Assembly (NCBI GenBank): GCA_036397835.1
Contig: DASWIG010000100.1
Span: forward strand, 67-64,066
DNA from: Thermoanaerobaculia bacterium
Lineage (GTDB): Bacteria; Acidobacteriota; Thermoanaerobaculia; Multivoradales; J023
Direction of reading: 5' to 3'
DNA: 64,000 nt
Numbering within the stretch: the stretch's first letter is position 1; every line of letters starts with the position of its first letter. Made by a program: the position numbers and the translations under genes. A model generated the notes under the pieces. That model made no database searches and had not been told where the DNA came from. It saw nothing but the letters and a program-made list of their open reading frames with translations. Positions 6,987 through 62,459 of this stretch are shown in pieces.

Positions 6987-7003
6987 CGAGGAGGTGGAAC
7001 GTG

Positions 7004-48987: not shown

Positions 48988-50964
48988 ATGGCGACTACCG
49001 TCGAATCCCCGCAGGTGGAAACCCACCAGTTCCAGGCCGAGACGCGAAAGCTGCTCGACCTGATGATCCACTCGCTCTACACGCAGAAGGAGATCTTCCT
49101 GCGCGAGCTCGTCTCGAACGCGTCGGACGCCTGCGACCGCCTGCGTTTCGAGGCCTTGTCGAGCCCCGAGCTGATGGCGGGCGACGACCCCCTCGAGATC
49201 CACCTCGAAGGCGACAAGGAGGCCCGCACGCTGACGATCAGCGACAACGGCATCGGCATGAGCCGCGAGGAGGTGATCGCGAACATCGGCACCATCGCCA
49301 AGTCGGGCAGCCAGGAGCTGATGGCCAGGCTGCGCGAGGCGCCGCCGACCACGGCCGAGCTCCACGAGCTCATCGGCCAGTTCGGCGTCGGCTTCTACTC
49401 GGCGTTCATGGCCGCCGACAAGCTCACCCTGGTGACCCGCCGCGCCGGCGAGGAGAGCGCCACCCGCTGGGAGTCGACGGGCGACGGCACCTACACCCTG
49501 GCGTCGGCCCAGCGCCCCGGCCGCGGCACCTCCATCACCCTGCACCTGAAGCCCGCGGACTCGGACGCCGGCATCGAGGACTACACCGAGCGCTGGACCG
49601 TCTCCCGCATCGTCAAGCGCTATTCCGACTTCGTGGCCTACCCGATCATCTTCCACGACACCAGGGAAGTGACGAAGGAGGAGAAGGACGAGGAGGGCAG
49701 AACGAAGGAGGGCGAGACCGAGACCGTCATCGAGAAGGTCACCCTCAACTCGATGAAGCCGATCTGGACCCGTCCGGCCGTGGAGGTCACCGAGGAGGAC
49801 TACGCCGAGTTCTACAAGCACATCTCCCACGACTGGAACCCGCCGATGCGGACGATGCGCTTCGAGGCCGAGGGGCGCATCGAGTACCAGGTGCTGTGCT
49901 TCATCCCCTCGGAGGCGTCCGAGGAGCTCTACTACCACGCCTTCGAGTACGGCCTGCAGCTCTACGTGCGGCGGGTCAAGATCATGGACCGTTGCGAGGA
50001 CCTGGTGCCGCGCTACCTGCGCTTCGTGCGCGGCGTCGTCGACTCCGAGGACCTGCCGCTGAACATCTCGCGCCAGCGGCTCCAGGAAGACCGGCACATC
50101 GCCCAGATCAGGAAGTGGATCACCCGCAAGGTCCTCGAGACCTTGCAGCAGGTGAAGAGCGAGGACGCCGAGAAGTACCTGGGGTTCTGGGAGCACTTCG
50201 GCCGCGCCATGAAGGAGGGCCTGACCGCCGACTTCGACAACAAGGAGAAGCTCCTGCCGCTGATGCTCTGGCAGTCCTCGGCCGACCCCGAGAAGCTGAC
50301 CACCCTCGCCGAGTACAAGGAGCGCATGCAGGAGGGCCAGGAGCACGTCTACTACCTCTCGGGCGAGTCGCGCGCCGCCGTCGACAGCTCGCCCCACCTC
50401 GAGGCCTTCAAGGCCAAGGGCTACGAGGTCCTCTACCTGACCGACCCGGTCGACGAGCTCGTGGTGCAGTACCTGCACGAGTACGACGACAAGCGTCTGA
50501 AGTCGGTCGGCAAGGGCGAGGTCGACCTCGAGGCCAAGGACGAGGAGGAGAAGAAGGAGCGCAAGAAGCAGCTCGAGGCCAAGCAGGAGAAGCACAAGGA
50601 CCTGCTGGACCTGATCCAGAAGAAGCTCGACCGCGAGATCAAGTGGGTGCGCTTCTCCGGGCGGCTGACGGCCTCGCCGGCGTGCCTGGTGGGCGCCGAG
50701 CACGACTACAGCCCGCAGCTCGAGAAGCTGCTGATGAAGGGCAAGGGCGGCGGCCCCAAGCAGCGCTGGATCCTCGAGCTCAACCCGGACCACGAGCTGC
50801 TCGTCAAGATGGAGGCGCGCTACGCGGCCGACAAGGAGGACCCGCTCCTCGGCGACTACGCCGAGCTCCTGCTCGGCTACGCCCAGGTCGCCCAGGGCTC
50901 GGAGCTCACCGATCGGGTGATCTTCAACCAGGCCCTGGCCAAGGTCATGGTCGAGCGGCTGTAG
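48988..50964 (+). CDS. htpG: Molecular chaperone HtpG (Hsp90)
   Basis: ETHQFQAETRKLLDLMIHSLYTQKEIFLRELVSNASDA...IGQFGVGFYSAFM...; full length 658 aa. Confidence 0.95.
   Translation: MATTVESPQVETHQFQAETRKLLDLMIHSLYTQKEIFLRELVSNASDACDRLRFEALSSPELMAGDDPLEIHLEGDKEARTLTISDNGIGMSREEVIANIGTIAKSGSQELMARLREAPPTTAELHELIGQFGVGFYSAFMAADKLTLVTRRAGEESATRWESTGDGTYTLASAQRPGRGTSITLHLKPADSDAGIEDYTERWTVSRIVKRYSDFVAYPIIFHDTREVTKEEKDEEGRTKEGETETVIEKVTLNSMKPIWTRPAVEVTEEDYAEFYKHISHDWNPPMRTMRFEAEGRIEYQVLCFIPSEASEELYYHAFEYGLQLYVRRVKIMDRCEDLVPRYLRFVRGVVDSEDLPLNISRQRLQEDRHIAQIRKWITRKVLETLQQVKSEDAEKYLGFWEHFGRAMKEGLTADFDNKEKLLPLMLWQSSADPEKLTTLAEYKERMQEGQEHVYYLSGESRAAVDSSPHLEAFKAKGYEVLYLTDPVDELVVQYLHEYDDKRLKSVGKGEVDLEAKDEEEKKERKKQLEAKQEKHKDLLDLIQKKLDREIKWVRFSGRLTASPACLVGAEHDYSPQLEKLLMKGKGGGPKQRWILELNPDHELLVKMEARYAADKEDPLLGDYAELLLGYAQVAQGSELTDRVIFNQALAKVMVERL
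50908..50962 (+). repeat. Left copy of the ~55-bp direct repeat (htpG 3' terminus); right copy at 56422-56476
   Basis: accgatcgggtgatcttcaaccaggccctggccaaggtcatggtcgagcggctgt versus accgatccggcgatcttcaaccaggccctggccaaggtcatggtccagcggctgt (3 mismatches). Confidence 0.85.
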
Positions 50965-51002
50965 ACGCGCTCAGCGCAGACGGCCTCGAGGCGGGGCGCG
51001 AC

Positions 51003-51190
51003 AATGACCATTGAGACGCGATGAACGCCCTTTCATCATGGGCTAACGTAAGTTGGCGCATGATGAGTGACGAGAAATCGCGGCTCAATGACCATTGAGA
51101 CGCGCCGGACGTGTCGTCCATCATGGGCCAATATCGTTGGCGCATGATGAACGGGGAGAAAACGCGCCTCAACGGCCATTGAAGCGTCCC
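51003..51190. repeat. About 2.2 tandem copies of an 84-bp repeat (CAATGACCATTGAGACGCG...TCATCATGGGC...TTGGCGCATGATGA), then a GC hairpin GGGCAGGCACGGGGGCCTGCCC
   Basis: Seen directly; each unit has an internal inverted repeat CATCATG/CATGATG; low GC. Confidence 0.75.
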
Positions 51191-51248
51191 CAGGGCAGGC
51201 ACGGGGGCCTGCCCCTACGCCGGACGGCCCGCGATCAGCATAGGGGGC

Positions 51249-51351
51249 TTGATCCTGATGCCTGTGATGCGCTATACTGGCGTCTGATGAGCATCAGATA
51301 GACGCATAGGACGCACAGACGACGCACCAAGACGCACAGACGACGCACCAA
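51249..51351 (+). promoter_or_regulatory. Sigma70-like promoter (TTGATC-18-TATACT), then a perfect 16-bp palindrome TCTGATGAGCATCAGA and two 21-bp direct repeats GACGCACAGACGACGCACCAA, just before the SD AAGGAG of the RHH gene
   Basis: Seen directly at 51249-51278 (promoter), 51283-51298 (palindrome), 51310-51351 (DRs). Confidence 0.5.
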
Positions 51352-51361
51352 GGAGACCGCC

Positions 51362-51574
51362 ATGCCCCGACTGACCATCGAGTTCCCCGAAGAGGGCGAC
51401 AGGATCCTGAGCAAGCTGGCCAAGGACGAAGACACCACCAAGCGCGAGGTGATCCGCCGCGCTCTGGCACTCTACAACTACATCCACAAGGAAGGCGTGA
51501 GGATGGGCGGCGGCGAACGCCGCCTGTCGATCACCGACAAGGACTCCAAGGTCGTCAAGGACATCATCATCTGA
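51362..51574 (+). CDS. Ribbon-helix-helix (CopG/ParD-like) DNA-binding protein
   Basis: MPRLTIEFPEEGDRILSKLAKDEDTTKREVIRRALALYNY is the beta-alpha-alpha RHH pattern; ATG after AAGGAG. Confidence 0.6.
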   Translation: MPRLTIEFPEEGDRILSKLAKDEDTTKREVIRRALALYNYIHKEGVRMGGGERRLSITDKDSKVVKDIII

Positions 51575-51614
51575 GAGCCTCCGTTCCGGAGGTGACGAGC
51601 AGGAGGGATTCTCC

Positions 51615-52040
51615 ATGTCGGAGCGAGGAGACGACGCCCCCAAGGTCCTCGAAGAGGACGACGCCGAAGGCCTGATCTTCGTACGGGACTTCCCGCCGAT
51701 CAGGACGCCGGACCCCGAGTCGTATCTGGAGTGGTCGGGCGTCCGGCAGATGACGATCGTGCTCGTGATCATCTGCGTCGCGGTCGTGGGCTTCCTGGCC
51801 GCCTGGGCGTTGACCGTGCCGACGATCGAGGACGTCCGCGCCCTCGCCGGCGGCGCCTCCCCCGCTGACCCGCAGGCCGCCGCCGAGCTCCTGGACGGCC
51901 TGCGCGAGGGACACATGAGTCGGTTCCGCGACCTGTTCCAGCTCCTGGTCATGTCGGCGCTGGTGCCGCTCTTCACGCTGCTCGCCGGCTACGTCTTCGG
52001 CAAGAGCAGCAGCGAGCGACGCCGGAAGCAGGACCCGTGA
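51615..52040 (+). CDS. Small 2-TM membrane protein (hypothetical), translationally coupled to the STAND gene
   Basis: TM1 MTIVLVIICVAVVGFLAAWAL and TM2 LLVMSALVPLFTLLAGYVF; GTGA overlap with the next gene. Confidence 0.5.
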   Translation: MSERGDDAPKVLEEDDAEGLIFVRDFPPIRTPDPESYLEWSGVRQMTIVLVIICVAVVGFLAAWALTVPTIEDVRALAGGASPADPQAAAELLDGLREGHMSRFRDLFQLLVMSALVPLFTLLAGYVFGKSSSERRRKQDP

Positions 52041-54940
52041 CGCCGCGAGCCACGCTCTACGTCGGTGTGGCCGTCCCGCTGGTCGAGGTCTTTCACCTGT
52101 GGATCGCCAAGGTCCCTCGGCACGACGATCCACAGGAACAGCAGCAGGCCCTCAAGTCGTTCCCACACCGCGAGATCGGCGCCTACGCCCTTCGTCCTGC
52201 CGGCGACCCGTCCTCGGGGACAGTCCCCGCGGCTCTGGCGTTTCGCACCGCGGCGACCGTGTCGCCCGAGCGGGTGCGTGAACGGATCGAGGCGTGGAGC
52301 GCCGAGCCGCCGGAGCTCGTGGCGAGCGACTCCACGCCGATCGCGCCCCTCGACCACCGCCGCTATCTCGACGAGCTCCAGCGTGCCCTGGAGGACAAGC
52401 CGGTGCGGGTGGTCCCGCGCATCGGTCTGACGCTCCAGCACCTGCAACGCGACCGGCTGGCACTGCGGCCCGAGATGGTGGCGCTCTTCTGCCACGGCAC
52501 GGACGAGGGATGTCTGCTGCTCGAGGACGGACGCGGCACAGCCGCGGTGACGCCCGGCGATCGCGTCCTGGGTGTTCTCACGCCGCGACCGCGGGTGACC
52601 GTCCTCGCCGCCTGCTACTCGGAGGCAGTGCTGAAGCGGGCGGCCGAAGACGGCGGCCCGGATGCCGCGATCGTCTCCGTGGACTCGGAGTCGGCGATCG
52701 AGGTGACGGCCACCGCCGAATTCCAGTCGCTGTTCTACGACCTGCTGCTCCAAGGTCGAACGGTGGGCGAGGCGTTCGACGCGGCGCAATCCTTCGTCGC
52801 CAACAGTGACGTGACGGGCGACCTCGCTTTCGCCAGAACCGCGCCCAGCCAGAAGCTGCGCATCAATCCCGCGGGCAGGGACGTCCGTCTCGACGCCGCG
52901 CCGGCGACCGCCGCTGAGCTCCCGCCGGAGCTCGTGACCACGCCCCATGCCCGCTCGCCGCGCATCCGCCGCGGGCTCGACCACTTCGTGGGACGCCGGC
53001 CTGAGCTCGCGGAGGTGCTGGACGCTCTGCTGCCGCTGCCTGCCGGCGTCCGTCGGCCGGGCGCCGGCGTCCGCCGGCTGGTGACGCTGACCAAGGAAGG
53101 CGGGATCGGCAAGACGGCGCTCGCCGCCCAGGCGTCGCAGTGGGCGACGGAACGCGGTCTCTTTCCGGGAGGCGTCGTCGAGATCTCATGTGAAGAGATC
53201 CCGGGGCCGGGTCAACTCCTCTCGCGCCTGCTCGCGACGTTCGGCGTGCCCGCCGAGAGCCAGCGCGGTGACCTCTTGGAGCTGCTCGCCGGGGTACTTG
53301 GCGCTCTTTCGCCGCGGCAAGGTCGGGTGCTGCTGGTGCTCGACAACCTCGACGACCTGGTCGGGAACCAGATGCCATTGGAGACGAACCGCGAGACGCA
53401 GGCTGTATTGGAGACGGCGGTGGCCGCGGCGCCTGAGCTGCGGATGCTGGCTACCTGCCGCTGGCCCTTGGGGATGGCGGAGGAGGCGGTGGTGGCGGTG
53501 AAGCCGCTCACCGACGGCGACAGCCGCGACGTCTTCATGTCCTACGTCGAGTCGCCTCAGCACGTCCTCGAAGCTCACCAGACCTGGCCGCAGGACGACA
53601 GCCCGGTCCGACAACTGATCCGGCTCTCGGGCCGTCACCCGCAGTCGCTGCGACTCCTGGCGCGTCAGCTCGGGCGTCATGGAATGACGATTGCCAAACT
53701 GCGCGACGAGGCATACGCGGACCTCCTTCCGGTGCTGACGGATCCTTATCGCCGTGAGGACGACGACGACCGGCAGCTCAAGGTGGAGCGTTCCTACGAG
53801 CTCTCCTACCGTCATCTCAGCGCGGAAGGTCAAGTGCTCTTCGCTCGGCTGGCGCGTTTGCCCGGGGGCGTGTGGTGCGGGGAGATGCCGGAGAACGTGA
53901 TCGGGTGGCAGGAGCTTCTGGGCGAGCAGTGGAAGGCGGTCCTTGAAAAGGAGCTCGACTACTACGCGCTGGTCCACTTCGAAGCGGACCCGTCGGGGAG
54001 GACGGAAGGATTCTTCCGCATGCTGCCGGCCATGGTGGAGCTCAGCCGGAGGAAGCTGGAAGAGCGGGAGGACGAGGAATGGACCGGCCGGTGGGTCGAG
54101 TTCTGGCGGCGGCGACTGAGCCTGTGGAATCAGATGCTCTCGGGGAAGGTACCCGAAGAGATGGGAGAGCTGGATCCTGATGGACGCGCCGCGGCCGGAG
54201 GTCGCCTTCGCAGCGTGGCGGCCATGCTGTTTGCCGGCACCCAGGCCAACTGGACGTCGCTTTTCGAGCTCGCTTGCGAGAACGATCCGAAGCTTGCGAA
54301 GTGGGTCCTGCTCAAAATCGTCCCCTTCACGCAGCTCACCGGCCAGCGATTATTGCGTCGGGATCTTGCCCGGAGAGCTGTGGTGGCGCTCCGCAGCGGC
54401 AATCACGAGCCGGAGCTGGCCGCCTGTCTGGGAACTCTCGGCTACGGGCAAAGCGATCTCGGCGAGCACGAGGCGGCGCAAAAATCCTACCATGAGGCGC
54501 TCGAAATCAGGAGGCGACTGGCCGCCCAGCACCCCGCCGCTTTCGAACCCGACGTCGCGATGACGCTCAACAACCTCGGCAATGTGCAACGCGCTCTCGG
54601 CGAGCGCGAGGCGGCGCGAAAATCCTTCCATGGGGCGCTCGAAATCTATCGGCGACTGGCCGCCCAGCACCCCGCCGCTTTCGAACCCAACGTCGCGATG
54701 ACGCTCAACAACCTCGGCACTGTGCAAAGCGATCTCGGCGAGCGGGAGGCGGCGCGCGAGTGCTATGCCGAGGCTCTCGGTATCTACGCTCCGCTGGCGG
54801 AGAAGTATCCCCGAGCCTTCGTCCATAACCTCAGGATCGTCCTGCGGGGATACACGTCGGTTACTCCCGAGTCCGAGGACGATCCCTGGTGGCGGCTTTG
54901 GCGGGAGCTCACCCGTCAGCCTGAGGACGCCCCGACCTGA
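52037..54940 (+). CDS. STAND NTPase: N-terminal CHAT (caspase-like) protease domain, NB-ARC-type ATPase, C-terminal TPR array
   Basis: CHAT His/Cys dyad context ALFCHGTDEG...RVTVLAACYSEAV...AIVSVDSESAIEV; Walker A LTKEGGIGKTALAAQ; Walker B VLLVLDNLDD; TPR units ...MTLNNLGNVQRALGEREAARKSF... Confidence 0.8.
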   Translation: MTPRATLYVGVAVPLVEVFHLWIAKVPRHDDPQEQQQALKSFPHREIGAYALRPAGDPSSGTVPAALAFRTAATVSPERVRERIEAWSAEPPELVASDSTPIAPLDHRRYLDELQRALEDKPVRVVPRIGLTLQHLQRDRLALRPEMVALFCHGTDEGCLLLEDGRGTAAVTPGDRVLGVLTPRPRVTVLAACYSEAVLKRAAEDGGPDAAIVSVDSESAIEVTATAEFQSLFYDLLLQGRTVGEAFDAAQSFVANSDVTGDLAFARTAPSQKLRINPAGRDVRLDAAPATAAELPPELVTTPHARSPRIRRGLDHFVGRRPELAEVLDALLPLPAGVRRPGAGVRRLVTLTKEGGIGKTALAAQASQWATERGLFPGGVVEISCEEIPGPGQLLSRLLATFGVPAESQRGDLLELLAGVLGALSPRQGRVLLVLDNLDDLVGNQMPLETNRETQAVLETAVAAAPELRMLATCRWPLGMAEEAVVAVKPLTDGDSRDVFMSYVESPQHVLEAHQTWPQDDSPVRQLIRLSGRHPQSLRLLARQLGRHGMTIAKLRDEAYADLLPVLTDPYRREDDDDRQLKVERSYELSYRHLSAEGQVLFARLARLPGGVWCGEMPENVIGWQELLGEQWKAVLEKELDYYALVHFEADPSGRTEGFFRMLPAMVELSRRKLEEREDEEWTGRWVEFWRRRLSLWNQMLSGKVPEEMGELDPDGRAAAGGRLRSVAAMLFAGTQANWTSLFELACENDPKLAKWVLLKIVPFTQLTGQRLLRRDLARRAVVALRSGNHEPELAACLGTLGYGQSDLGEHEAAQKSYHEALEIRRRLAAQHPAAFEPDVAMTLNNLGNVQRALGEREAARKSFHGALEIYRRLAAQHPAAFEPNVAMTLNNLGTVQSDLGEREAARECYAEALGIYAPLAEKYPRAFVHNLRIVLRGYTSVTPESEDDPWWRLWRELTRQPEDAPT
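54470..54745 (+). repeat. Near-identical (about 92%) 138-bp tandem duplication inside the TPR-coding region of the STAND gene
   Basis: 54470-54607 versus 54608-54745 align base-for-base with about 10 substitutions (EAAQKSYHEALEIRRRLAAQHPAAFEPDVAMTLNNLGNVQRALGER / EAARKSFHGALEIYRRLAAQHPAAFEPNVAMTLNNLGTVQSDLGER). Confidence 0.85.
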
Positions 54941-55065
54941 ACGGCACGCCGGAAGCGGCAGGGACCGTTGCGGCCCACCTTGCGGCTCATGCTCCGGACT
55001 CTACCATGGACACGAGCCGCGGATCGAAAATTGCACTTTCGATCCGCGGACGGTATCCTGGGCGC

Positions 55066-56289
55066 ATGTACCTGAGACGGACCCTTCAGGGCGCCCTCTC
55101 CCGGGCCGTGCGCGGCTTCCCGGCGGTGCTCGTCACGGGACCCCGTCAGTCGGGCAAGACGACGCTGCTGCGCGCCACCTACGGCGAGACGCACGGATAC
55201 GTCTCGCTCGAGAACCCCGACGTCCGCGAGCGAGCCCTCGCCGATCCGATCGGATTCCTCCGCGATCATCCCGCCCCGGTGATCCTCGACGAGATCCAGC
55301 ACGTGCCGTCGCTGCTCTCCTACGTCAAGACGGCGATCGACGAGGACCGTCGGCCCGGACGCTGGCTGCTGTCGGGATCGCAGAACTTCCCCCTCATGCA
55401 GGGGGCCAGCGAATCCCTGGCGGGACGCGTGGCGGTCCTCACCCTGCTGCCGCTGTCCGCGGGCGAAGCCGCGGGACGCCCAGGTCCCCGCCTCGGCCTC
55501 GAACAGATCCTGGATCGAATCCTCGAAGCCCGGCAGGCGCCCCGAGGACGCCGGATTCCGCTGGCGCGTTGGATCCTGCGGGGCGGCTATCCGGCACTCT
55601 GGGAGAAGCGCCGTCCCGACCGCAGTCTGTGGGCGGCAAGCTACATCCAGACCTATCTCGAGCGCGACGTCCGCAGCGTCGTGCGGGTCAACGACCTGGG
55701 CACCTTTCAGACTTTCCTGCGCCTGACGGCGGCCCGGACGGGCCAGATCCTCAACCTGGCCGACCTCGCCCGCGACGTCGGCGTCTCGCCCCCGACCGTG
55801 CGCCAGTGGCTGAGCGTGCTCGAGGCGAGCCACCAGATCTGCCTGCTGCGGCCTTACTTCGAGAACTTCGGCAAGCGCATGATCAAGAGCCCCAAGCTCT
55901 ACTGGCTCGACCCGGGCATCGTGACGTTCCTCGTGGGCCTCCACGACGAGGAAGCGGTATTGCGCGGCCCCATGGCGGGAGCCCTGGTCGAGACCGCGGT
56001 GGTCGCGGAGCTGATGAAGGTCTACCTGCACCGGGGCATGCCACCGACGCTGTGGTATTGGCGTACCCGCGACGGCTGGGAGGTCGACGTGCTGCTGGAG
56101 CGCTCCCAGCGGCTCCACCCCATCGAGATCAAGAGCACTGCGACGCCGCGGCCGGCGCACGCGGAGGGCCTCCTGCGATGGCGGGAGCTGGCCGGCAAGA
56201 AGGCGGGAGACGGCCTCCTGGTGGCGAACGTGGAGCGTCCCTCGGCGCTCGTTCCGGGCGTCCGAGCCCTGCCCTGGGACGCCATCTGA
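55066..56289 (+). CDS. AAA+ ATPase of the AAA_14/DUF4143 family
   Basis: VLVTGPRQSGKTTLL Walker A; PVILDEIQHVP Walker B; C-terminal DUF4143-like ...WEVDVLLE...IEIKS; start at MYLRRTLQ (55066). Confidence 0.75.
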   Translation: MYLRRTLQGALSRAVRGFPAVLVTGPRQSGKTTLLRATYGETHGYVSLENPDVRERALADPIGFLRDHPAPVILDEIQHVPSLLSYVKTAIDEDRRPGRWLLSGSQNFPLMQGASESLAGRVAVLTLLPLSAGEAAGRPGPRLGLEQILDRILEARQAPRGRRIPLARWILRGGYPALWEKRRPDRSLWAASYIQTYLERDVRSVVRVNDLGTFQTFLRLTAARTGQILNLADLARDVGVSPPTVRQWLSVLEASHQICLLRPYFENFGKRMIKSPKLYWLDPGIVTFLVGLHDEEAVLRGPMAGALVETAVVAELMKVYLHRGMPPTLWYWRTRDGWEVDVLLERSQRLHPIEIKSTATPRPAHAEGLLRWRELAGKKAGDGLLVANVERPSALVPGVRALPWDAI

Positions 56290-56296
56290 GCTCGAA

Positions 56297-56440
56297 TTGA
56301 CGGTGGTCGCCGCTTTCGAACCCGACGTCGCTGGCACGCTCAACAACCTCGGCAATGGCCTCGGCGAGCCGCACGGCGAGCTCTGCCGGCCGCGCGTCGA
56401 GGAGCTTGGCGAGGCAAGTCCACCGATCCGGCGATCTTCA
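56297..56440 (+). pseudogene. Remnant of a TPR-STAND gene (copy of the AAFEPDVA-TLNNLGN coding block) fused to the htpG 3'-end repeat
   Basis: 56310-56356 matches 54533-54582 (ccgctttcgaacccgacgtcgc...acgctcaacaacctcggcaatg); no intact ORF. Confidence 0.5.
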
Positions 56441-56571
56441 ACCAGGCCCTGGCCAAGGTCATGGTCCAGCGGCTGTCGCGCGAATCGCCCAGCGGATCCA
56501 GGGGAGCAGGAGCCGCGGCGCGTTCGCTTTCCCCGCTTCGCCTGTGATAGAACGGCCGGCGGAGCTTCACG

Positions 56572-57453
56572 ATGCGACTGATCACCCGTGGCGATCTCGA
56601 CGGTCTGGCGTGCTCGGTCATCATCACCGAGCACGAAGACGTCTCGGAGATCGTCCTGCTCCATCCGCAGGACATCACCGACGAGCGCATCGAGGTCACG
56701 GGCGAGGACGTGATCGCCAACCTGCCCTTCCACCCCCGCTGCGCCCTGTGGTTCGACCACCACCTGCAGACGTCGTCGAACAAGCGTCCCGAGGGCGAGT
56801 TCAACGGCCGCTACGGCCTGGCGCCGAGCGCCGCGCAACTGGTCTGGGAGCACTACGGCAACGAGCCGCGCTTCGAGCAGCTCATCGAGGAAACCAACCG
56901 GCTCGACTCGGCGCAGCTCACCCACGCCGACGTGCTCGACCCCAAGGACTACATCCTGCTCGGCTACACCATCGACAGCCGCACCGGGCTCGGCGCCTTC
57001 GAGTACTACTTCCGCCAGTGCGTCGAGTGGGTCAGGGCGATGCCGATCGCGGAGGTGCTGCGTCAGCCCATGGTGATCGAGCGCGTCGAGCGCATCCGCG
57101 AGGAGGACGACAGCTTCCGCGAGGCCCTGCTCGCCGCCACCGCCCTCCACGGCAACGTGATCTTCACCGACTTCCGCGACAGCCCCTACCTGCCGATCGG
57201 CAACCGCTTCCTCGTCTACACCCTGTTCCCCGACGGCAACGTGTCGCTGCGCGTCCACTGGGGCCCGGACCGCAAGTTCGCGGTGGCGGCGGTGGCCCAC
57301 TCGATCTTCAACCGTACCTGCAAGACCAACGTCGGCCAGCTCATGGCCCGCTACGGCGGCGGCGGCCACCACGGCGCCGGCTCGACGCCGCTGCCCACCG
57401 AGCGCGCCGACGACCTCATCGGCGAGCTCCTGGAAGAGTTGTGGGAGAAGTGA
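56572..57453 (+). CDS. Putative DHH-superfamily phosphoesterase (COG2404-like)
   Basis: MRLITRGDLDGLACSVII...HPQD...FDHH motifs reminiscent of DHH phosphoesterases; assignment tentative. Confidence 0.45.
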   Translation: MRLITRGDLDGLACSVIITEHEDVSEIVLLHPQDITDERIEVTGEDVIANLPFHPRCALWFDHHLQTSSNKRPEGEFNGRYGLAPSAAQLVWEHYGNEPRFEQLIEETNRLDSAQLTHADVLDPKDYILLGYTIDSRTGLGAFEYYFRQCVEWVRAMPIAEVLRQPMVIERVERIREEDDSFREALLAATALHGNVIFTDFRDSPYLPIGNRFLVYTLFPDGNVSLRVHWGPDRKFAVAAVAHSIFNRTCKTNVGQLMARYGGGGHHGAGSTPLPTERADDLIGELLEELWEK

Positions 57454-59531
57454 CGGCCGACCGACGCCTCGCCGCCGCGGCGGCCGTGACCGCGGCGCTG
57501 CTCACGGCCGTGGTCGCCGTGGGCTGCGCCACCGCGACCGGGAGCCGGGACGCCGCCCTTCCCGGCCCGGCGGTCTCGCTCGACGTCGACCACCTCGAGC
57601 AGCGGGCACTGCTCCTGCTGCTCGCCGACCGCCAGACCTACGAGCCGGTGACGATCGACGCCGCCCTCGACGCCTCGCCCGAGCTGCGGCGGCAGGCCGC
57701 CCTCACCCTGGGGCGCCTCGCCGACGCCCGCGGCGGACCGGTGCTCGCCTCGCTCCTCGCCGACGCCGACGCCGCCGTGCGCCGCGCCGCCGCTTTCGCT
57801 CTGGGCGAGCTCGGCGAGGACCTGCGCGCGCGCCCGGCGGCGGCCGAAGAGGGCTACGTGGAGGCGGCGGCCGCGGCGCTGCTCGGCACCGTCAACGACC
57901 CCGACCGCGACAGCGGACGCCTCGCCGTGGAGGCCCTGGCGAAGCTCGGCGTCACCGTGGAGACGGTGGCCGAGCGCCTCATCGAGGGACCCTCGGAGGA
58001 GCTGCTGCCGCGCCTGCTGCCCTCGCTCTTCCGTTTCCAGAGCCGCGAGGATCCGAGCGCCGGCGTGGTCCGTTGGGCCGCCGCCGGCCTCGCCGAGGAC
58101 GACGGCGAGCGGCGCCGCCAGGCGGCCTACGCCCTGGCGCGCACGCCGCTGCCGGAGAGCGCGCCGGCGCTGCGCCCGCTGCTCGCGGACGGCGACGCCG
58201 AGGTCCGCGGCTGGGCCGCGCGCGCCCTCGGCGAGGTGGGGGAGCGTCCCGACCTCGACCTGCTGCGCCCGCTCCTCGACGACCCGGCGCCGGGGCCGAT
58301 CGTCCAGGCCCTGCGCGCGGCGCGCCGCCTGATCGCCGCCGGCACGGCGGCGCCGCCTTCGCACTGGCAGCCGCGGCTGCTCGAGCTCCTGGACGAGGCG
58401 CGCCCGGGGGTGCGGCTGACCGCCGTCGAGGCGGCGGGCTCGTGGCTGCTCGACGACGAGCTGGGCGAGGCCCTGGTGACCCTGGCCGCCGCCGGCCATC
58501 CCCGCGAGCGCCAGCTCGCGCTGCTCGCCCTGGCCGAAGGCGAGGACCCGCGGGCCGTGATCGCGCTGGCGGCGGCGGCCCGCGACGCCGACGTGGCGGT
58601 GCGCCGCAACGCCGCCCGCGCCGCCGGATTGCTGAGCGCCGTGGAGGTGCTCGAGCAGCTCGCCGACGACGAGCACCCGGCGGTGCGCGCGGCGGTCCTC
58701 GAGACCTGGCTCGCCGCGGACCCCGACGACGCGGCGGCGCGCGCCGCCGAAGGTCTCGCCGACGCCGACGCCGGCGTGCGCGCCACCGCCTTCGAGTGGC
58801 TCGCCGAGCACCCCGTCGTCCCCCTCGAGCTGCTCGTGGAGGCCCTCGCGGCGTCGCTGCGCGACCGCATCCCCGACTCCCGCCTCGCCGGCGTCGACGC
58901 GCTGGCGGCGCGCGCCGCGGCCGAGCCCCTGGAGCGCGGCGCCCTGATCGCCGAGCTCGAGACCCTGGCGCGCGACGAAGCCTACCTGGTGCGGAGCCGG
59001 GCGTCCGCGGCCCTCGCCGGCCTCGGCCGCGAGGCCCCCGAGCCCGGCGCCCTGCGCCTGAGGAAGCCGGTCGAGGTCTACCGCGACGTGGTGCGGCGCA
59101 CGGCGCGTCCGCGGCGGGCGACGATCCGCACCGAGCGCGGCGACGTGGTGGTGGAGCTGGCCTGCCCCGAGGCGCCGCTGACCTGCCTCAACTTCCTGCA
59201 GCTCGGCGCCCAGGGCTTCTACGACGGCCTGCCCTTCCACCGGGTGGTGCCCGACTTCGTGGTCCAGGCCGGCGATCCGCGCGGCGACGGCCGCGGCGGC
59301 CCGGGCTATCAGATCCGCGATGAGATCAACGTGCTGCGCTACGAGCCCGGCGTCCTCGGCATGGCGCTGGCGGGCCCCGACACCGGCGGCAGCCAGTTCT
59401 TCCTCACCCTGGCGCCCCAGCCCCACCTCGACGGCGGCTACACCGTCTTCGGCCGCGTGGTCGCCGGCCTCGAGGTCCTGGACCAGGTCGTCCAGGGCGA
59501 CCGCATCCTCGGCGTCGTCGAGGAGCCGTAA
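57450..59531 (+). CDS. Lipoprotein with HEAT-like (PBS-lyase type) repeats and C-terminal cyclophilin-type peptidyl-prolyl isomerase
   Basis: Lipobox LTAVVAVGCA; repeated ...DAAVRRAAAFALGELG... HEAT-like units; C-terminal LNFLQLGAQGFYDGLPFHRVVPDFVVQAGDPRGDGRGGPGY...GSQFFLTLAPQPHLDGGYTVFGRV; GTGA overlap with the upstream gene. Confidence 0.8.
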   Translation: MTADRRLAAAAAVTAALLTAVVAVGCATATGSRDAALPGPAVSLDVDHLEQRALLLLLADRQTYEPVTIDAALDASPELRRQAALTLGRLADARGGPVLASLLADADAAVRRAAAFALGELGEDLRARPAAAEEGYVEAAAAALLGTVNDPDRDSGRLAVEALAKLGVTVETVAERLIEGPSEELLPRLLPSLFRFQSREDPSAGVVRWAAAGLAEDDGERRRQAAYALARTPLPESAPALRPLLADGDAEVRGWAARALGEVGERPDLDLLRPLLDDPAPGPIVQALRAARRLIAAGTAAPPSHWQPRLLELLDEARPGVRLTAVEAAGSWLLDDELGEALVTLAAAGHPRERQLALLALAEGEDPRAVIALAAAARDADVAVRRNAARAAGLLSAVEVLEQLADDEHPAVRAAVLETWLAADPDDAAARAAEGLADADAGVRATAFEWLAEHPVVPLELLVEALAASLRDRIPDSRLAGVDALAARAAAEPLERGALIAELETLARDEAYLVRSRASAALAGLGREAPEPGALRLRKPVEVYRDVVRRTARPRRATIRTERGDVVVELACPEAPLTCLNFLQLGAQGFYDGLPFHRVVPDFVVQAGDPRGDGRGGPGYQIRDEINVLRYEPGVLGMALAGPDTGGSQFFLTLAPQPHLDGGYTVFGRVVAGLEVLDQVVQGDRILGVVEEP

Positions 59532-59544
59532 GAGGCCGACTTCG

Positions 59545-59575
59545 TCGACCGAATCCCCCTGCCCCTTTGAAAAGG
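59545..59575 (+). terminator. Perfect GC hairpin CCCCCTGCCCC-TTTGAAAA-GGGGCAGGGGG after the cyclophilin gene (no U-tract)
   Basis: Seen directly. Confidence 0.45.
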
Positions 59576-59653
59576 GGGCAGGGGGATATCCCCGCCGGCC
59601 GTGGGATACTGTGCCGGTCCTGCAACCTTCCTCCTGACGCTGCGTAGTAGCCC

Positions 59654-60238
59654 ATGTCGAGACCGATGCAAGCCCAAGACGAAGAGTTGGTGGAGTCGGT
59701 GCTCGCGGGAAAGGTGGAGCTCTTTGCCGAGCTGATCGAGCGCTATCAGGGTCGACTGGTCAACTACCTGTACCGGATGCTGCGCAACGAGGAGGACGCT
59801 CATGATCTCGCCCAGGAAGTGTTCCTCAAGATCTACGGCGCCCTCGACCGGTTCGATCCGCGCTACCGCTTCTCGACCTGGCTGTTCCGGGTGGCCCAGA
59901 ACGCGGCCATCGACCAGATCCGGAAGCGGCGGCTGAAGCTGGTCTCGATCCACCGCCCCGAAGACGCCGACGGGGACGGTGGCGATTGGGAGCTCCCGGG
60001 CGAGGGGCCGACGCCCTATCAGGCAAGACGCAACGTAGAGCGGGGCACGGCGATCCGGGAGGCGATCGGGGAGCTGCCCTGGGAGTACCAGGAGCTGATC
60101 ACCCTCCGGCACTACGGAGAGCTGTCTTACGACGAGATCGCAACGCTCAAGAACATGCCGCTGGGCACCGTGAAGAACAAGCTCTTTCGCGGCCGGCAGA
60201 TGCTCAAGGAAAAGCTGGGAGACTTCCTGACCGATTGA
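59654..60238 (+). CDS. ECF-subfamily RNA polymerase sigma factor
   Basis: Sigma-70 region 2 DLAQEVFLKIY...FSTWLFRVAQNAAIDQIRKRR and region 4 ITLRHYGELSYDEIATLKNMPLGTVKNKLFRGR. Confidence 0.85.
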   Translation: MSRPMQAQDEELVESVLAGKVELFAELIERYQGRLVNYLYRMLRNEEDAHDLAQEVFLKIYGALDRFDPRYRFSTWLFRVAQNAAIDQIRKRRLKLVSIHRPEDADGDGGDWELPGEGPTPYQARRNVERGTAIREAIGELPWEYQELITLRHYGELSYDEIATLKNMPLGTVKNKLFRGRQMLKEKLGDFLTD

Positions 60239-60254
60239 CTCCCTCAAGACAGGC

Positions 60255-60863
60255 ATGGAGAGGCATTCGATGAAGACCATGGATCGGGAAAACGTCGCCG
60301 AGTGGCTGGATCTCGACGTCGACGGCCAGCTCGGCGAAGCCGAGCGCGCACGGTTGGCGCAGGTCCTGGCGGCGGGCGGTGAGCTGGCGGCCGAGCGCCG
60401 CCGCCTGGAGGCCCTGCATGCCGATCTCGCGGCCGCCCGCGTCGCCGTGCGGCCCGGCTTCCGCGACGCGGTGATGGCGTCGCTGCCGGCGCCTGCCTGG
60501 CGGCGCGGCAGGTCGTGGACGCTGCCGCTGGCGATGGCGGTCGGCTTCGCCGTCGCCGCCGCTCTTGCCCTCGCGGGTGCGTCCGCCGAAGGCGCGGCCC
60601 TCGGCACCGGCGTCGCCGTGCTCGACCTGCTCGCCACCGCGCTGCTCGCCGGCTCGGGGCTGCTGGCGGCGTCGTGGCGCGGCCTGGCCCTCGCCCTCGA
60701 GGAGCTCATCTCGGCGTCGGGACTGAGCCTCGCCGCCATGGCGCTCGGCGTGCTCTTCCTCAACCTGCTGTTCTTCTCGATGCTGCGCCGCCGCCGGCCG
60801 CACGACCCTCAGCCGGTGCTCGAAAGGGCGGCCGTGGAGCGCGATACAATAGAGCGTCAGTGA
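60255..60863 (+). CDS. Membrane anti-sigma factor (predicted)
   Basis: Immediately downstream of the ECF sigma; N-terminal anti-sigma-like helix then TM helices. Confidence 0.55.
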   Translation: MERHSMKTMDRENVAEWLDLDVDGQLGEAERARLAQVLAAGGELAAERRRLEALHADLAAARVAVRPGFRDAVMASLPAPAWRRGRSWTLPLAMAVGFAVAAALALAGASAEGAALGTGVAVLDLLATALLAGSGLLAASWRGLALALEELISASGLSLAAMALGVLFLNLLFFSMLRRRRPHDPQPVLERAAVERDTIERQ

Positions 60864-61786
60864 GACGACGTTTCCCGCTTCCCCTCCTGCCGCTCGCCGT
60901 GGCGGCGGCCTGCGTGATCGCGGCGGCGCCCGGCCCCGCCGATCCCGCCGGCGACGAGACGCCGGCCTATCACCTTCAGCGGGGCAGCGTGGCGCGCCGC
61001 CACGTCGTGGCCCTCGGACGCGACATGGTCGTCGACGGCCACGCGCGCAGCCACGCCGTGGTGATGAGCGGCTCGATCCGGGTGTCGGGCACAGTGGACG
61101 GCGACGTGATCGTGATCTCGGGCGACGCGCGCCTGGCGCCGACGGCCGAGGTCGCGGGCGACGTCTACGTGCTCGGCGGCAGGATCGAGGCGTCGCCGGG
61201 CGCCGCGATCGGCGGCCGCTCGGTGGCATATCCCGACGCTTCGGCGTTGTGGATGGGATTGCTCGAGGCGCCGTCGCTGGGCCGCTCGGCGTTCTCCCCC
61301 GTCGTCCTCGGGGCCCAGCTCGCGCTCCTCGCCTTCTGGTCGTTCATGGTGCTGCTGGTCCTGAGCGTCGGCCGGCGCGAGCTGTTGTCGACCTCGGAGA
61401 GCGTGCGCGCGGAGCCCTTCCGCAACTTCCTGCTCGGCCTCGTCGGCGTCGCCGCGATGACCCTGACGGCGCTCCTCTTCAGCGCCTTCTCGGGCATGCT
61501 GCTGGGGGTGCCGCTGCTGGTGCTGGTGGCGGTGGCGGCGCTGGTGCTGCGCTTCTGGGGCATGGTGGCCGTCTTCCATGCCCTCGGCGATTGGCTGTGC
61601 CGCGTGCTGCGCAAACGCCCGCCGCTGCCCCTGGTGGCGGCGAGCTGCGGCCTCCTCGTCCTCGGGATCCTCAAGCTCTTCCCGTGGATCGGCGCCTGGA
61701 CCTGGATGGCGGCGACGTTCATCGGCGTCGGCGCGGCGCTGTCGACCAAGATGGGACGGCGCGAGACCTGGTTCGAGACCGTCTGA
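60859..61786 (+). CDS. Bactofilin-like (polymer-forming beta-helix, DUF583-type) domain protein with C-terminal multi-TM region
   Basis: VVMSGSIRVSGTVDGDVIVISGDARLAPTAEVAGDVYVLGGRIE beta-helix repeat; signal/TM N-terminus; 3-4 C-terminal TM helices; GTGA overlap. Confidence 0.5.
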
Positions 61787-61898: not shown

Positions 61899-62459
61899 AT
61901 GACCAACGACGTCACCCAGCTTCTCGTCGACTGGAGCAACGGCGACGAGGGCGCCCTCCGGGAGCTGCTCCCCCTGGTCTACGACGAGCTCCACCGCCTC
62001 GCTGAAACCTACATGCGGCGGGAACGGCCCGGTCACACCCTGCAACCTACGGCGCTCGTCCACGAGGCGTACCTGCGGCTCGTCGACCAGACACGCGTGA
62101 GGTGGCGCAACCGCGCCCACTTCATCGGCGTTGCGGCGCAGTTGATGCGCCGCGTCGCCGTCAAGCACGCCGAGCGTCACCGCGCCGCCAAACGCGGCGG
62201 CGGCGCGTTGCGTATGCCCTTCGACGAAGCCGCGCTGCCGGGCACCGCGAGCGAGGAGGACGTGATCGCCCTCGACGAGGCCCTCGAGCGCTTGAAGCAG
62301 CTCGACCCGCGCCAGAGCCGGATCGTGGAGCTGCGGTTCTTCGGCGGGCTCACGGGCAAGGAAATGACCGCGGTGCTGGGCGTCTCGCAGGCCACCCTCG
62401 ATCGCGAGTGGCGCGCGGCCCGGGCCTGGCTGCGCCGCGAGCTCGCCGCCGGCCGCTGA
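61899..62459 (+). CDS. ECF sigma factor of the kinase-associated type
   Basis: LLPLVYDELHRLAETYMRRERPGHTLQPTALVHEAYLRL (region 2-like) and region 4 ELRFFGGLTGKEMTAVLGVSQATLDREW. Confidence 0.8.
   Translation: MTNDVTQLLVDWSNGDEGALRELLPLVYDELHRLAETYMRRERPGHTLQPTALVHEAYLRLVDQTRVRWRNRAHFIGVAAQLMRRVAVKHAERHRAAKRGGGALRMPFDEAALPGTASEEDVIALDEALERLKQLDPRQSRIVELRFFGGLTGKEMTAVLGVSQATLDREWRAARAWLRRELAAGR

What the first reader, a model, noticed from the sequence alone, without database searches (positions are those of the whole stretch)
50908..56476. About 5.5-kb island at the htpG 3' end encoding a CHAT-NB-ARC-TPR STAND NTPase operon, bracketed by ~55-bp direct repeats
The last ~55 bp of htpG (50908-50962) recur with 3 mismatches at 56422-56476. 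This kind of duplication is typical of site-specific integration into a gene's 3' end. The lower-GC DNA between the repeats carries, in order: a tandem-repeat and promoter region; an RHH regulator; a 2-TM protein; a caspase-like(CHAT)-NB-ARC-TPR STAND ATPase translationally coupled to the 2-TM protein; and a DUF4143-type AAA ATPase. STAND NTPases with protease effectors (Avs-like) are established antiphage/abortive-infection modules. I am not aware of the combination RHH + small membrane protein + CHAT-STAND + AAA_14/DUF4143 as a described unit. No integrase is present, so the element is either fixed or a remnant.
Basis: partly seen in the sequence, partly recalled or inferred. Interest (0 to 1): 0.8.

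Follow-up and report, generated by a model that had tools for sequence, protein, structure and literature searches.

The report
Sensor protease operon inserted after htpG
Right after the chaperone gene htpG, an uncultured Acidobacteria bacterium carries a 5.5-kb foreign insert whose core is a conserved three-gene operon (small DNA-binding regulator, small two-helix membrane protein, large caspase-like sensor protease); it most likely works as an anti-virus suicide switch, and it is a new family-level variant of an already described design.

Summary

The interpretation needs correcting in three ways.

1. The conserved unit is three genes: RHH, 2TM, and CHAT-NACHT-TPR, with a 4-nt 2TM/STAND overlap. 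It recurs in four other genomes at unrelated sites, without repeats and without AAA_14. The AAA_14/DUF4143 gene is a separate passenger (PADLOC candidate PDC-S01).
2. The RHH-2TM pair also occurs without any STAND.
3. Site-specific integration is unproven. There is no recombinase within 7-10 kb and no empty site was recovered. The right end is a mosaic of a truncated TPR copy and an antisense carB fragment.

The closest known systems are protease-effector modules such as EACC1-caspase-Avs12, where a small upstream protein is cleaved and forms pores. The 2TM protein here is not detectably EACC1. I call it a new variant of a known kind, of moderate interest.

The parts
48988..50964 (+). htpG (Hsp90-family chaperone), the gene whose 3' end is duplicated
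   Evidence: Pfam HSP90 E 6.9e-132. An identical protein is named HtpG of a Thermoanaerobaculia MAG.
50907..50962 (+). Direct repeat copy 1: the last 18 codons of htpG (TDRVIFNQALAKVMVERL). It ends at the T of the stop codon.
50993..51190 (.). About 200-nt imperfect long hairpin built from an 84-nt tandem unit (x2.2). It is followed by a G+C-rich hairpin at 51193-51216. It is unique in the window and its function is unknown.
   Evidence: I1, D12; fold z = -6.8 on both strands
51249..51278 (+). Promoter-like site TTGATC-18-TATACT upstream of the RHH gene
   Evidence: consensus match only
51283..51351 (+). Operator-like region: palindrome TCTGATGAGCATCAGA (51283-51298), then GACGCA-type boxes at 10-11-nt spacing, including a perfect 21-nt tandem repeat (51310-51351). 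The repeat has 2 copies here and 3 in the JGI contigs.
   Evidence: Comparable repeated boxes lie between the -10 element and the RBS in L015, L018 and L014, and over and just downstream of the promoter hexamers in L034.
51362..51574 (+). 70-aa ribbon-helix-helix protein with a conserved C-terminal tail (LSITDKDSKVVKDII)
   Evidence: Pfam RHH_1 E 3.4e-5. Orthologues lie upstream of the module in L014, L015, L018 and L019. It is 50% identical to the L034 protein.
51615..52040 (+). 141-aa two-transmembrane-helix protein. TM2 has the invariant motif PLFTLLAGYVFG. No Pfam family matches.
   Evidence: (AlphaFold pLDDT 80; helices 34-66, 71-77, 86-139)
52037..54940 (+). 967-aa CHAT-NACHT-TPR STAND NTPase. 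Its start GTG overlaps the stop of the 2TM gene (GTGA).
52037..52966 (+). CHAT/caspase-fold protease domain (aa 1-310). Predicted catalytic residues are His153 (52493-52495) and Cys193 (52613-52615).
53099..53356 (+). NTPase core: Walker A GGIGKT (53099-53116) and Walker B LLVLDNLDD (53330-53356)
   Evidence: Pfam NACHT covers aa 351-504.
54437..54850 (+). Array of three 138-nt (46-aa) TPR units, identities 90% and 60% to the first. Copy number varies between strains.
   Evidence: (D1)
55006..56289 (+). AAA_14 + DUF4143 ATPase (PADLOC candidate PDC-S01). It is a passenger, not part of the conserved module.
   Evidence: Pfam. PADLOC PDLC04790 E 4.3e-113. Absent next to the module in the 5 other genomes.
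56308..56357 (+). Remnant: a second, truncated copy of the last TPR unit of the STAND gene. It is 92% identical to 54535-54584 and is longer in contig L016.
   Evidence: (D2)
56357..56413 (-). Remnant: antisense fragment of carB (carbamoyl-phosphate synthase large subunit). 19 aa are present here and 55 aa in L016.
   Evidence: E 1.3e-6 to E. coli CarB residues 502-554
56421..56476 (+). Direct repeat copy 2 (TDPAIFNQALAKVMVQRL, no stop codon)
56572..57453 (+). First gene after the island (293 aa, no Pfam family). It has high GC3, like htpG.

Best explanation
The core of the finding is a conserved three-gene operon. Its genes are a ribbon-helix-helix (RHH) protein, a small two-helix membrane protein, and an NLR-like STAND protein with an N-terminal CHAT (caspase-like) protease, a NACHT-type NTPase and a C-terminal array of near-identical TPR units.

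Proposed mechanism (inferred, not shown):
1. The RHH protein represses the operon by binding the repeated boxes between the promoter and the ribosome-binding site.
2. The TPR array recognises an invader-derived protein.
3. NTP-dependent oligomerisation brings the CHAT domains together and switches the protease on.
4. The protease cleaves an operon-encoded partner, most likely the translationally coupled 2TM protein. That protein then damages the membrane and stops the infected cell (abortive infection).

In this Thermoanaerobaculia population the operon lies next to an unrelated defence-candidate gene (AAA_14/DUF4143, PDC-S01). Both sit inside a 5.5-kb acquired segment joined to the 3' end of htpG, and that junction left a 56-nt duplication of the htpG tail.
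For: Shown:
- The 56-nt repeat is present in two independent assemblies.
- The module RHH (68-70 aa), 2TM (137-157 aa) and STAND, with an identical 4-nt overlap, is present in L014, L015, L018 and L019 in different housekeeping neighbourhoods. At least five further STAND/2TM pairs share contigs, judged by matching contig lengths.
- NACHT is above the Pfam cut-off, and the Walker A and B motifs are intact.
- TPR units are polymorphic in number (921/967/1013 aa) within a population whose contigs are about 99.6-99.8% identical. Variation is concentrated at a few unit positions.
- Repeated operator-like boxes lie at the RHH gene promoter in every locus read: downstream of the -10 element in four, and overlapping the promoter in L034.
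- GC3 of the island genes is lower than that of their neighbours.
- There are fewer segregating sites in the island body than in htpG.

From the literature:
- Small proteins encoded just upstream of caspase-STAND proteins are cleaved to become pore-forming effectors, as in EACC1 with KrAvs12 (10.1101/2025.11.14.688446; PMC7159879 section 33).
- CHAT/NACHT/TPR proteases activate bacterial gasdermins (10.1101/2021.06.07.447441).
Against: - No experiment exists.
- No PADLOC or NCBIfam defence model matches the STAND, RHH or 2TM proteins.
- Outside this window the module is not in obvious defence islands.
- The 2TM protein has no detectable relation to EACC1, gasdermin or any Pfam family, so the substrate assignment rests on analogy.
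- The RHH-2TM pair exists without any STAND in L034/L035, and one STAND relative (P0004) lacks both small genes. The three parts are therefore separable.
- The origin of the repeat is unresolved.
Confidence: 0.5

Rival explanations
1. The RHH-2TM pair is a toxin-antitoxin-like unit, and the protease substrate is the RHH protein rather than the membrane protein. The 2TM protein would be the membrane toxin, and RHH would be its repressor and/or antitoxin. On activation the CHAT-STAND cleaves RHH, which de-represses and releases the toxin. This parallels the protease-controlled regulators CalpT and Csx30.
For: - RHH (50% identical) plus 2TM (41% identical) occur as a pair with their own repeated operator boxes and no STAND within 7 kb in L034/L035.
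- The RHH protein has a conserved C-terminal tail beyond the DNA-binding fold, as RHH antitoxins do (general knowledge).
- The 2TM family has 452 clusters at 50% identity. The STAND search returned only about 31 close relatives (clusters at 90% identity). The two counts come from different searches and are not strictly comparable.
Against: - The conserved 4-nt overlap couples the 2TM protein, not RHH, to the STAND.
- In the experimentally studied analogues the protein immediately upstream of the protease gene is the substrate (10.1101/2025.11.14.688446).
- Toxicity of the 2TM protein is untested.
Confidence: 0.25
2. The island is a remnant integrative element, and the 56-nt repeats are the attL/attR sites of a site-specific recombinase that targeted the htpG 3' end and supplied a replacement gene end.
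For: - The direct repeat brackets the foreign-looking DNA exactly, and htpG stays intact with its stop at the repeat edge.
- GC3 drops inside the island.
- Polymorphism is low in the island body compared with the flanks.
Against: - No recombinase lies in the island, nor within about 10 kb upstream or 7.5 kb downstream.
- The repeat has 3 mismatches.
- The DNA abutting copy 2 consists of gene fragments (a TPR copy and antisense carB), not a conserved arm.
- The five other module loci show no flanking repeats and sit at unrelated sites.
- No empty site was found in about 22 contigs of this population or in the nearest HtpG relatives at 73-74% identity.
- No relatives were found in IMG/VR or PLSDB.
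Confidence: 0.3
3. The repeat is a by-product of recombination without a dedicated recombinase. DNA from a related donor was anchored by homology in htpG, and its far end was joined illegitimately just upstream of the recipient's own htpG tail (homology-facilitated illegitimate recombination). The alternative is a Campbell-type single crossover on short homology. A similar later event added AAA_14 behind the STAND gene.
For: - The two copies differ the way two alleles of one ancestral sequence would. Relatives read TDPV...ERL. Copy 1 reads TDRV...ERL and copy 2 reads TDPA...QRL.
- The right end is a mosaic of fragments.
- The AAA_14 gene is itself bracketed by two copies, 93% identical, of a 149-nt stretch of the last STAND TPR unit, as seen in L016.
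- There is no recombinase nearby.
Against: - This is purely inferential, and no donor or intermediate was observed.
- Natural transformation in this lineage is unknown.
- It does not by itself explain why the copy-1 boundary coincides with the stop codon.
Confidence: 0.35
4. The operon is not anti-phage. It would be a stress-responsive or developmental signalling or cell-death system, for example sensing misfolded or self proteins.
For: - The module sits among housekeeping genes in four other genomes.
- No defence model hits it.
- EACC1-protease modules fused to DnaK-like domains have been suggested to act in stress responses (10.1101/2025.11.14.688446, Discussion).
- Here it lies next to htpG, a stress chaperone gene.
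Against: - The htpG adjacency is unique to this population.
- Sensor repeats that vary in number and sequence, sporadic distribution across phyla, and adjacency to PDC-S01 all fit conflict systems better.
Confidence: 0.15

Closest known systems
EACC1-caspase two-gene system (Kaur et al. 2020, PMC7159879, 'System 4') and EACC1-KrAvs12 (Evans et al. 2025, 10.1101/2025.11.14.688446)
   Same: A small membrane-associated protein is encoded immediately 5' of a protein with an N-terminal caspase-superfamily protease fused to a STAND NTPase and repeats. The transmembrane segment is strongly conserved and contains small residues. In KrAvs12 the upstream protein is the cleaved pore-forming effector, and the catalytic Cys is required.
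   Different: The upstream protein here has two TM helices and is all-helical in the model, with no Pfam or fold match. EACC1 is described as having one TM helix with alpha+beta extensions and a beta-sheet autoinhibitory domain. A conserved RHH gene is added here. The host phyla differ: Acidobacteriota, Latescibacteria and Poribacteria MAGs, rather than actinobacteria and Chloroflexi.
Avs / bNACHT antiviral STAND NTPases
   Same: Tripartite layout: N-terminal effector, central STAND NTPase, C-terminal TPR-like sensor. NACHT-type NTPase by Pfam.
   Different: No PADLOC or NCBIfam Avs model matches. The trigger is unknown. Two conserved accessory genes are present.
Bacterial gasdermin-protease operons (10.1101/2021.06.07.447441)
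   Same: A CHAT protease, sometimes fused to NACHT/TPR, is encoded next to a membrane-damaging protein that it activates by cleavage.
   Different: The partner here is a 141-aa helical hairpin, not a gasdermin fold.
SAVED-CHAT (PDB 8tl0) and type III-E TPR-CHAT (Csx29) CRISPR-associated proteases
   Different: Activation there is by cyclic oligoadenylate or crRNA-target binding. Here a STAND NTPase/TPR sensor is fused, and there is no CRISPR context.
PADLOC candidate PDC-S01 (AAA_14 + DUF4143 ATPase)
   Same: The window gene 55006-56289 matches model PDLC04790 over its full length, E 4.3e-113.
   Different: It is only a neighbour of the module in this population. Whether PDC-S01 has been validated as a defence system was not checked here.

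Membership tests
CHAT / caspase-fold cysteine protease (Pfam PF12770, clan CD) | Caspase-hemoglobinase fold | tested here: met
CHAT / caspase-fold cysteine protease (Pfam PF12770, clan CD) | Catalytic His-Gly and Ala-Cys motifs (His/Cys dyad) | tested here: met
   C152-H153-G154 and A192-C193-x-S195 are conserved in at least 90% of 28 relatives and are present in the window protein. Structural equivalence to the catalytic residues was inferred, not superposed residue by residue.
CHAT / caspase-fold cysteine protease (Pfam PF12770, clan CD) | Pfam model score above the gathering cut-off | tested here: inconclusive
   The window protein alone scores E 0.12 and 12.3 bits, below the 24-bit cut-off. 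15 of 28 family members hit at E<=1, best 3.7e-7.
STAND NTPase, NACHT clade | P-loop NTPase with Walker A and B motifs and a Pfam NACHT match above the cut-off | tested here: met
   NACHT E 4e-7, 30.4 bits against a 26.7-bit cut-off, aa 351-504. 27 of 28 relatives hit. GGIGKT at aa 355 and LLVLDNLDD at aa 432.
   No NB-ARC hit at E<=0.01 for the window protein. PF00931 appears only in very distant hits P0033-P0036.
Avs (AVAST) defence families | Match to a curated Avs model (PADLOC, NCBIfam) | tested here: not met
   PADLOC gives only a generic TPR model at E 2.4e-5. NCBIfam has no Avs hit for the STAND.
Avs (AVAST) defence families | Activation by direct binding of a phage protein | not testable with these tools
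   Needs co-expression or pull-down experiments.
EACC1-caspase protease-effector module | Small membrane protein gene immediately 5' of a gene for an N-terminal caspase-domain protein | tested here: met
   The 4-nt overlap is conserved in the window and in L014, L015, L018 and L019.
EACC1-caspase protease-effector module | The upstream protein belongs to the EACC1 domain family (one conserved TM helix with alpha+beta extensions) | tested here: not met
   No EACC1 or other Pfam family appears among the best-supported matches for 30 members at E<=10. The model is all-helical with two TM helices. I did not verify that the Pfam copy holds an EACC1 model, so the sequence part of this test is weak.
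EACC1-caspase protease-effector module | Cleavage of the upstream protein releases a pore-forming fragment | not testable with these tools
   This is a biochemical assay.
Site-specifically integrated genomic island | Flanking direct repeats at a gene's 3' end | tested here: met
   56 nt, 53/56 identical.
Site-specifically integrated genomic island | Integrase or recombinase gene in or next to the island | tested here: not met
   The island ORFs are all accounted for. None is present among the called genes about 10 kb upstream or the ORFs of at least 120 aa scanned 7.5 kb downstream.
Site-specifically integrated genomic island | Empty target site in close relatives | tested here: inconclusive
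   All 10 places shown, from about 22 contigs of the population, carry the island. The nearest other HtpG proteins are only 73-74% identical and have no synteny.
PADLOC PDC-S01 | Full-length match to the PDC-S01 HMM | tested here: met
   PDLC04790 E 4.3e-113, aa 21-426 against profile positions 8-416 of 422.

The most novel reading that the evidence does not exclude
The RHH protein and the 2TM protein form a previously undescribed, autonomous membrane-toxin/regulator pair. An NLR-like CHAT protease has captured this pair as its execution arm. This would be a new effector family for proteolysis-gated immunity, and possibly the first case in which a STAND sensor protease fires a toxin-antitoxin-like module. 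Its TPR sensor array would diversify by unit gain, loss and shuffling inside a single natural population.
Probability: 0.3. Interest if true: 0.65.

Novelty: new variant of a known kind. Interest (0 to 1): 0.45.

Why it matters
Sensor proteases that unleash a neighbouring latent killer protein are emerging as a major theme shared by bacterial and animal innate immunity, as with gasdermins, EACC1 and Pepco. This locus would add a structurally different partner, an all-helical two-TM protein, plus a dedicated RHH regulator. It occurs in poorly studied phyla (Acidobacteriota, Latescibacteria, Poribacteria). The regulator-membrane protein pair can also live on its own.

The locus also offers a natural population series. 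The sensor TPR array changes in unit number and at a few hypervariable positions, while the rest of the operon is invariant. That makes it useful for studying how bacterial NLR-like receptors diversify. The htpG-tail duplication itself is ordinary island anatomy.

Tried and rejected
- Empty-site test. Scans of GTDB genomes and JGI metagenomes with HtpG found only relatives at 57% identity or less, with no synteny. A protein search found the next-best HtpG at 73-74% identity, also with no synteny. The 90% cluster of HtpG holds only 658-aa island-type proteins. The test therefore could not be made.
- Flanking repeats around the module in five other loci: none.
- Rfam on 50.5-57 kb: nothing meaningful, only one match far below its gathering score. 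tRNA genes in the window: none, so this is not a tRNA-type att site.
- PADLOC and NCBIfam for the STAND, RHH and 2TM proteins: no defence family.
- PDB sequence search with the STAND: only TPR proteins.
- Fold search with the 2TM model: no match with E<=0.001.
- Pfam on 30 2TM family members at E<=10: only scattered chance-level hits.
- IMG/VR viral contigs and PLSDB plasmids for the STAND and the 2TM protein: no relatives.
- Other copies of the 84-nt repeat or long hairpin in the window or in the other module loci: none.
- The afdb50 fold library was unavailable.
- The look-up of the 1013-aa STAND variant P0206 found no record.
- I considered and rejected the idea that the second htpG tail is an assembly artefact. 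It is imperfect and is reproduced in an independent assembly.
- I rejected AAA_14 as part of the unit because it is absent next to the module in the 5 other genomes.

Full report
**1. The observation**

The window holds htpG at 48988-50964 (Pfam HSP90, E 7e-132). Its last 56 nt (50907-50962) recur at 56421-56476 with 53/56 identity (family D4). By my own estimate, with a per-base match probability of about 0.28, the chance expectation for the whole window is below 1e-15. The repeat is imperfect. Both copies are reproduced exactly in L025, an independent assembly that differs from the window at 44 other positions over 17.9 kb. So it is not an assembly artefact. Copy 1 ends exactly at the T of the htpG stop codon. 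Copy 2 has no stop and would read on for 24 codons.

Identical proteins are named as coming from a Thermoanaerobaculia (Acidobacteriota) MAG, accessions HEX9731198/200/201.

**2. What lies between the repeats, left to right**

- An imperfect long hairpin of about 200 nt, made of an 84-nt tandem unit (50993-51190; fold z = -6.8 on either strand). It is unique in the window.
- A promoter-like site at 51249-51278.
- A palindrome and GACGCA-type boxes spaced 10-11 nt apart, including a perfect 21-nt tandem repeat (51283-51351).
- A 70-aa RHH gene at 51362-51574 (RHH_1, 24.1 bits, above the cut-off).
- A 141-aa gene at 51615-52040. Its product is modelled as two long hydrophobic helices (pLDDT 80).
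- A 967-aa gene at 52037-54940 that overlaps the previous stop codon by 4 nt.
- An AAA_14+DUF4143 gene at 55006-56289.
- A remnant zone at 56297-56420.

There is no recombinase in the island, nor among the called genes about 10 kb upstream, nor among the ORFs of at least 120 aa scanned 7.5 kb downstream. There is no tRNA gene in the window.

**3. The large protein**

Pfam alone does not call CHAT in the window protein (E 0.12). However, 15 of 28 close relatives hit CHAT, best E 3.7e-7.

The motifs C152-H153-G154 and A192-C193-x-S195 are conserved in at least 90% of relatives. I infer from this an active His/Cys dyad.

The NTPase matches Pfam NACHT above its gathering score (30.4 against 26.7 bits), and 27 of 28 relatives match too. 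There is no NB-ARC hit. Walker A (GGIGKT, aa 355) and Walker B (LLVLDNLDD, aa 432) are intact.

The C-terminus holds three 46-aa TPR units encoded by 138-nt repeats.

'NB-ARC' should read 'NACHT-type STAND'.

**4. The real unit**

The STAND has about 30 close relatives (43-59% identity) in MAGs and metagenomes, named Latescibacteria, Poribacteria or 'bacterium'.

In four of the five other genomes examined (L014, L015, L018, L019), a 68-70-aa RHH homologue and a 137-157-aa 2TM homologue precede it. The same 4-nt overlap joins the 2TM and STAND genes. Matching contig lengths show at least five more co-occurrences. Each copy sits among different housekeeping genes. None is next to htpG or next to an AAA_14 gene, and none has flanking direct repeats.

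The AAA_14+DUF4143 protein on its own matches the PADLOC candidate PDC-S01 at E 4.3e-113.

So the conserved unit has three genes. The fourth gene is an independent passenger.

The parts are also separable:
- One STAND relative (P0004, L017) lacks both small genes and carries a 137-aa N-terminal extension instead.
- In L034/L035 an RHH (50% identical, E 3e-25) and a 2TM homologue (41% identical) form a pair with their own repeated operator-like boxes. No STAND relative lies within 7 kb.

The 2TM family is small-protein-only. It has 452 clusters at 50% identity in 1.84 billion representatives. All of the best 150 are 62-284 aa long, with no fusions. It has an invariant motif PLFTLLAGYVFG in TM2. 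It has no Pfam family and no fold match. Neither the STAND nor the 2TM protein has relatives in IMG/VR or PLSDB.

**5. How it most likely works**

Shown: the architecture, the fold, the motifs, the conserved coupling, and the repeated boxes at the RHH promoter in every locus read. The boxes lie downstream of the -10 element in the window, L014, L015 and L018. In L034 they lie over and just after the promoter. L019 shows no clear pattern.

Inferred: RHH autoregulates the operon. The TPR array binds an invader protein. NTP-dependent oligomerisation activates the CHAT protease. The protease then cleaves an operon-encoded partner.

By analogy with EACC1-KrAvs12, the translationally coupled 2TM protein is the likeliest substrate and membrane-damaging effector. 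In that system a small protein encoded just upstream of a caspase-Avs12 fusion is cleaved, its C-terminal fragment forms pores, and the catalytic Cys is required (10.1101/2025.11.14.688446; system defined in PMC7159879, section 33). Gasdermin-CHAT pairs provide a second analogy (10.1101/2021.06.07.447441).

The main rival is that RHH-2TM is a toxin-antitoxin-like pair and that the protease removes RHH. The STAND-less pair in L034 and the conserved C-terminal tail of RHH favour this rival.

A non-defence role cannot be excluded. The module is not in obvious defence islands elsewhere, and no defence HMM recognises it.

**6. The island and its repeat**

Evidence for foreign origin:
- GC3 is 0.82-0.92 for the four island genes and 0.95-0.98 for htpG, the upstream Omp85-like gene and the downstream genes. 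Total G+C differs little (67.7% against 68.3-70%).
- In ten contigs of the same population the island body has 2 segregating sites in 3 kb, against 7 in the 2 kb of htpG. This suggests a recent sweep, but the counts are small.

Evidence against a clean site-specific integration:
- There is no recombinase.
- The repeat has three mismatches.
- No empty site was recovered. All 10 places shown, from about 22 contigs, carry the island. The nearest other HtpG proteins are 73-74% identical, and different genes follow them.
- The right end is a mosaic. Directly after AAA_14 comes a second, truncated copy of the STAND's last TPR unit. It covers 56308-56357 in the window. In contig L016 it runs for 149 nt at 93% identity and stops at ...KYPRAF. 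Then comes an antisense fragment of carB (55 aa in L016, 19 aa in the window; E 1.3e-6 to E. coli CarB 502-554). Then comes copy 2.

AAA_14 is therefore itself bracketed by a duplicated piece of the gene upstream of it. This is the same pattern as the whole island.

HtpG proteins of relatives read ...SELTDPV(R/K)FNQ...(E/D/A)RL and mostly stop there; three have extensions. Copy 1 reads TDRV...ERL and copy 2 reads TDPA...QRL. Each copy is one or two steps from the consensus, as two alleles of one ancestral tail would be.

I therefore rate a recombinase-free origin (confidence 0.35) slightly above an attL/attR origin (0.3). A recombinase-free origin means a homology anchor in htpG plus an illegitimate far junction, or a single crossover on short homology. 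The two are not resolved.

**7. Population variation seen in passing**

- The 21-nt box is present twice in the ENA contigs and three times in the JGI contigs.
- The STAND exists as 921-, 967- and 1013-aa forms that differ by whole 46-aa TPR units.
- Across the family, the number of units recognised by the NNLG motif ranges from 0 to 8. Variation is concentrated at about nine unit positions, and the other positions are nearly invariant.
- Within the population, mismatches pile up in the TPR array (up to 32-61 per kb, partly because of unit misalignment). RHH, 2TM, the CHAT domain and the NTPase are almost invariant.

**8. Comparison and verdict**

The design is known: effector, STAND and TPR sensor, with a small upstream protein that the caspase-like domain probably cleaves. 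By sequence or fold, however, the module is not a member of Avs, EACC1 or gasdermin systems. It also has a conserved RHH gene and a new helical 2TM partner that occurs autonomously. I file it as a new variant of a known kind, of moderate interest (0.45).

The island and direct-repeat part is real but ordinary, and its mechanism is unproven. The claimed four-gene unit is not supported.

Noticed in passing
window 50993-51190 (plus 51193-51216): There is an imperfect long hairpin of about 200 nt, made of an 84-nt tandem unit (x2.2), just after the htpG stop codon. A G+C-rich hairpin follows it. The fold z-score is -6.8 on both strands, there is no other copy in the window or in the other module loci, and there is no Rfam match. 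Its function is unknown; it could be a terminator or insulator, a palindromic mobile element, or a recombination site.
   Followed up: partly
window 51310-51351; L016, L028-L033: The perfect 21-nt repeat GACGCACAGACGACGCACCAA, which lies between the promoter-like site and the RBS of the RHH gene, has 2 copies in the window and the ENA contigs and 3 copies in the JGI contigs of the same population.
   Followed up: yes
window 54437-54850; proteins P0204, P0001, P0206: The TPR sensor array varies by whole 46-aa (138-nt) units within one population (STAND of 921, 967 or 1013 aa). Sequence variation is concentrated at about nine unit positions (7, 10, 14, 21, 30, 33, 40, 43, 44). This resembles the highly conserved yet hypervariable repeats of fungal NLRs (a comparison from my own knowledge).
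   Followed up: partly
window 56297-56420; L016 14261-14592: The right end of the island is a mosaic: a truncated second copy of the last STAND TPR unit, then an antisense carB fragment. Contig L016 carries 195 nt more of this remnant than the window and L025 do. No carB gene is present in the window.
   Followed up: yes
L034 6705-7468 (also L035): Homologues of the RHH (50% identical) and the 2TM protein (41% identical) form a pair with no CHAT-STAND within 7 kb. Repeated palindromic boxes (GCACAAATTTTGTGTAAA x2) overlap their promoter. The neighbours are a 596-aa pentapeptide-repeat protein and a bpMoxR ATPase.
   Followed up: partly
L017 7980-11735 (P0004): One STAND relative has no RHH or 2TM genes upstream. 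Instead it carries a 137-aa N-terminal extension with a glycine- and alanine-rich stretch and no Pfam hit. This could be a fused alternative effector.
   Followed up: partly
L014 11483-12612 and 12880-17166: Downstream of that STAND lie tandem repeats with a period of about 580 nt (98-99% identical), and then a 1428-aa fusion protein with Toprim, topoisomerase, DEAD-helicase, RecQ and HRDC domains.
   Followed up: no
window 51362-54400 versus 48988-50964, across L016 and L023-L033: The island body (RHH, 2TM, CHAT, NTPase) has 2 segregating sites in 3 kb. htpG has 7 in 2 kb, and the upstream 8-10 kb has 16. This suggests a recent acquisition or sweep, but the counts are small. Contig L031 also has an in-frame 21-nt insertion at 52322, in the CHAT domain.
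   Followed up: partly
window 4359-8335 and 59438-61786: These are other stretches whose best open frames have low GC3 (0.76-0.83, against about 0.92-0.97 elsewhere). They may be further acquired DNA or mis-chosen frames. The second stretch lies near two ECF sigma factor genes (59654-60238 and 61899-62459).
   Followed up: no
L020 7070-7751 (and L021): In the closest HtpG relative (74% identical), a Gp49/HTH_37 pair sits just upstream of htpG. From my own knowledge this looks like a HigB/HigA-like toxin-antitoxin pair. The htpG neighbourhood may be a recurrent landing place for small mobile modules.
   Followed up: no
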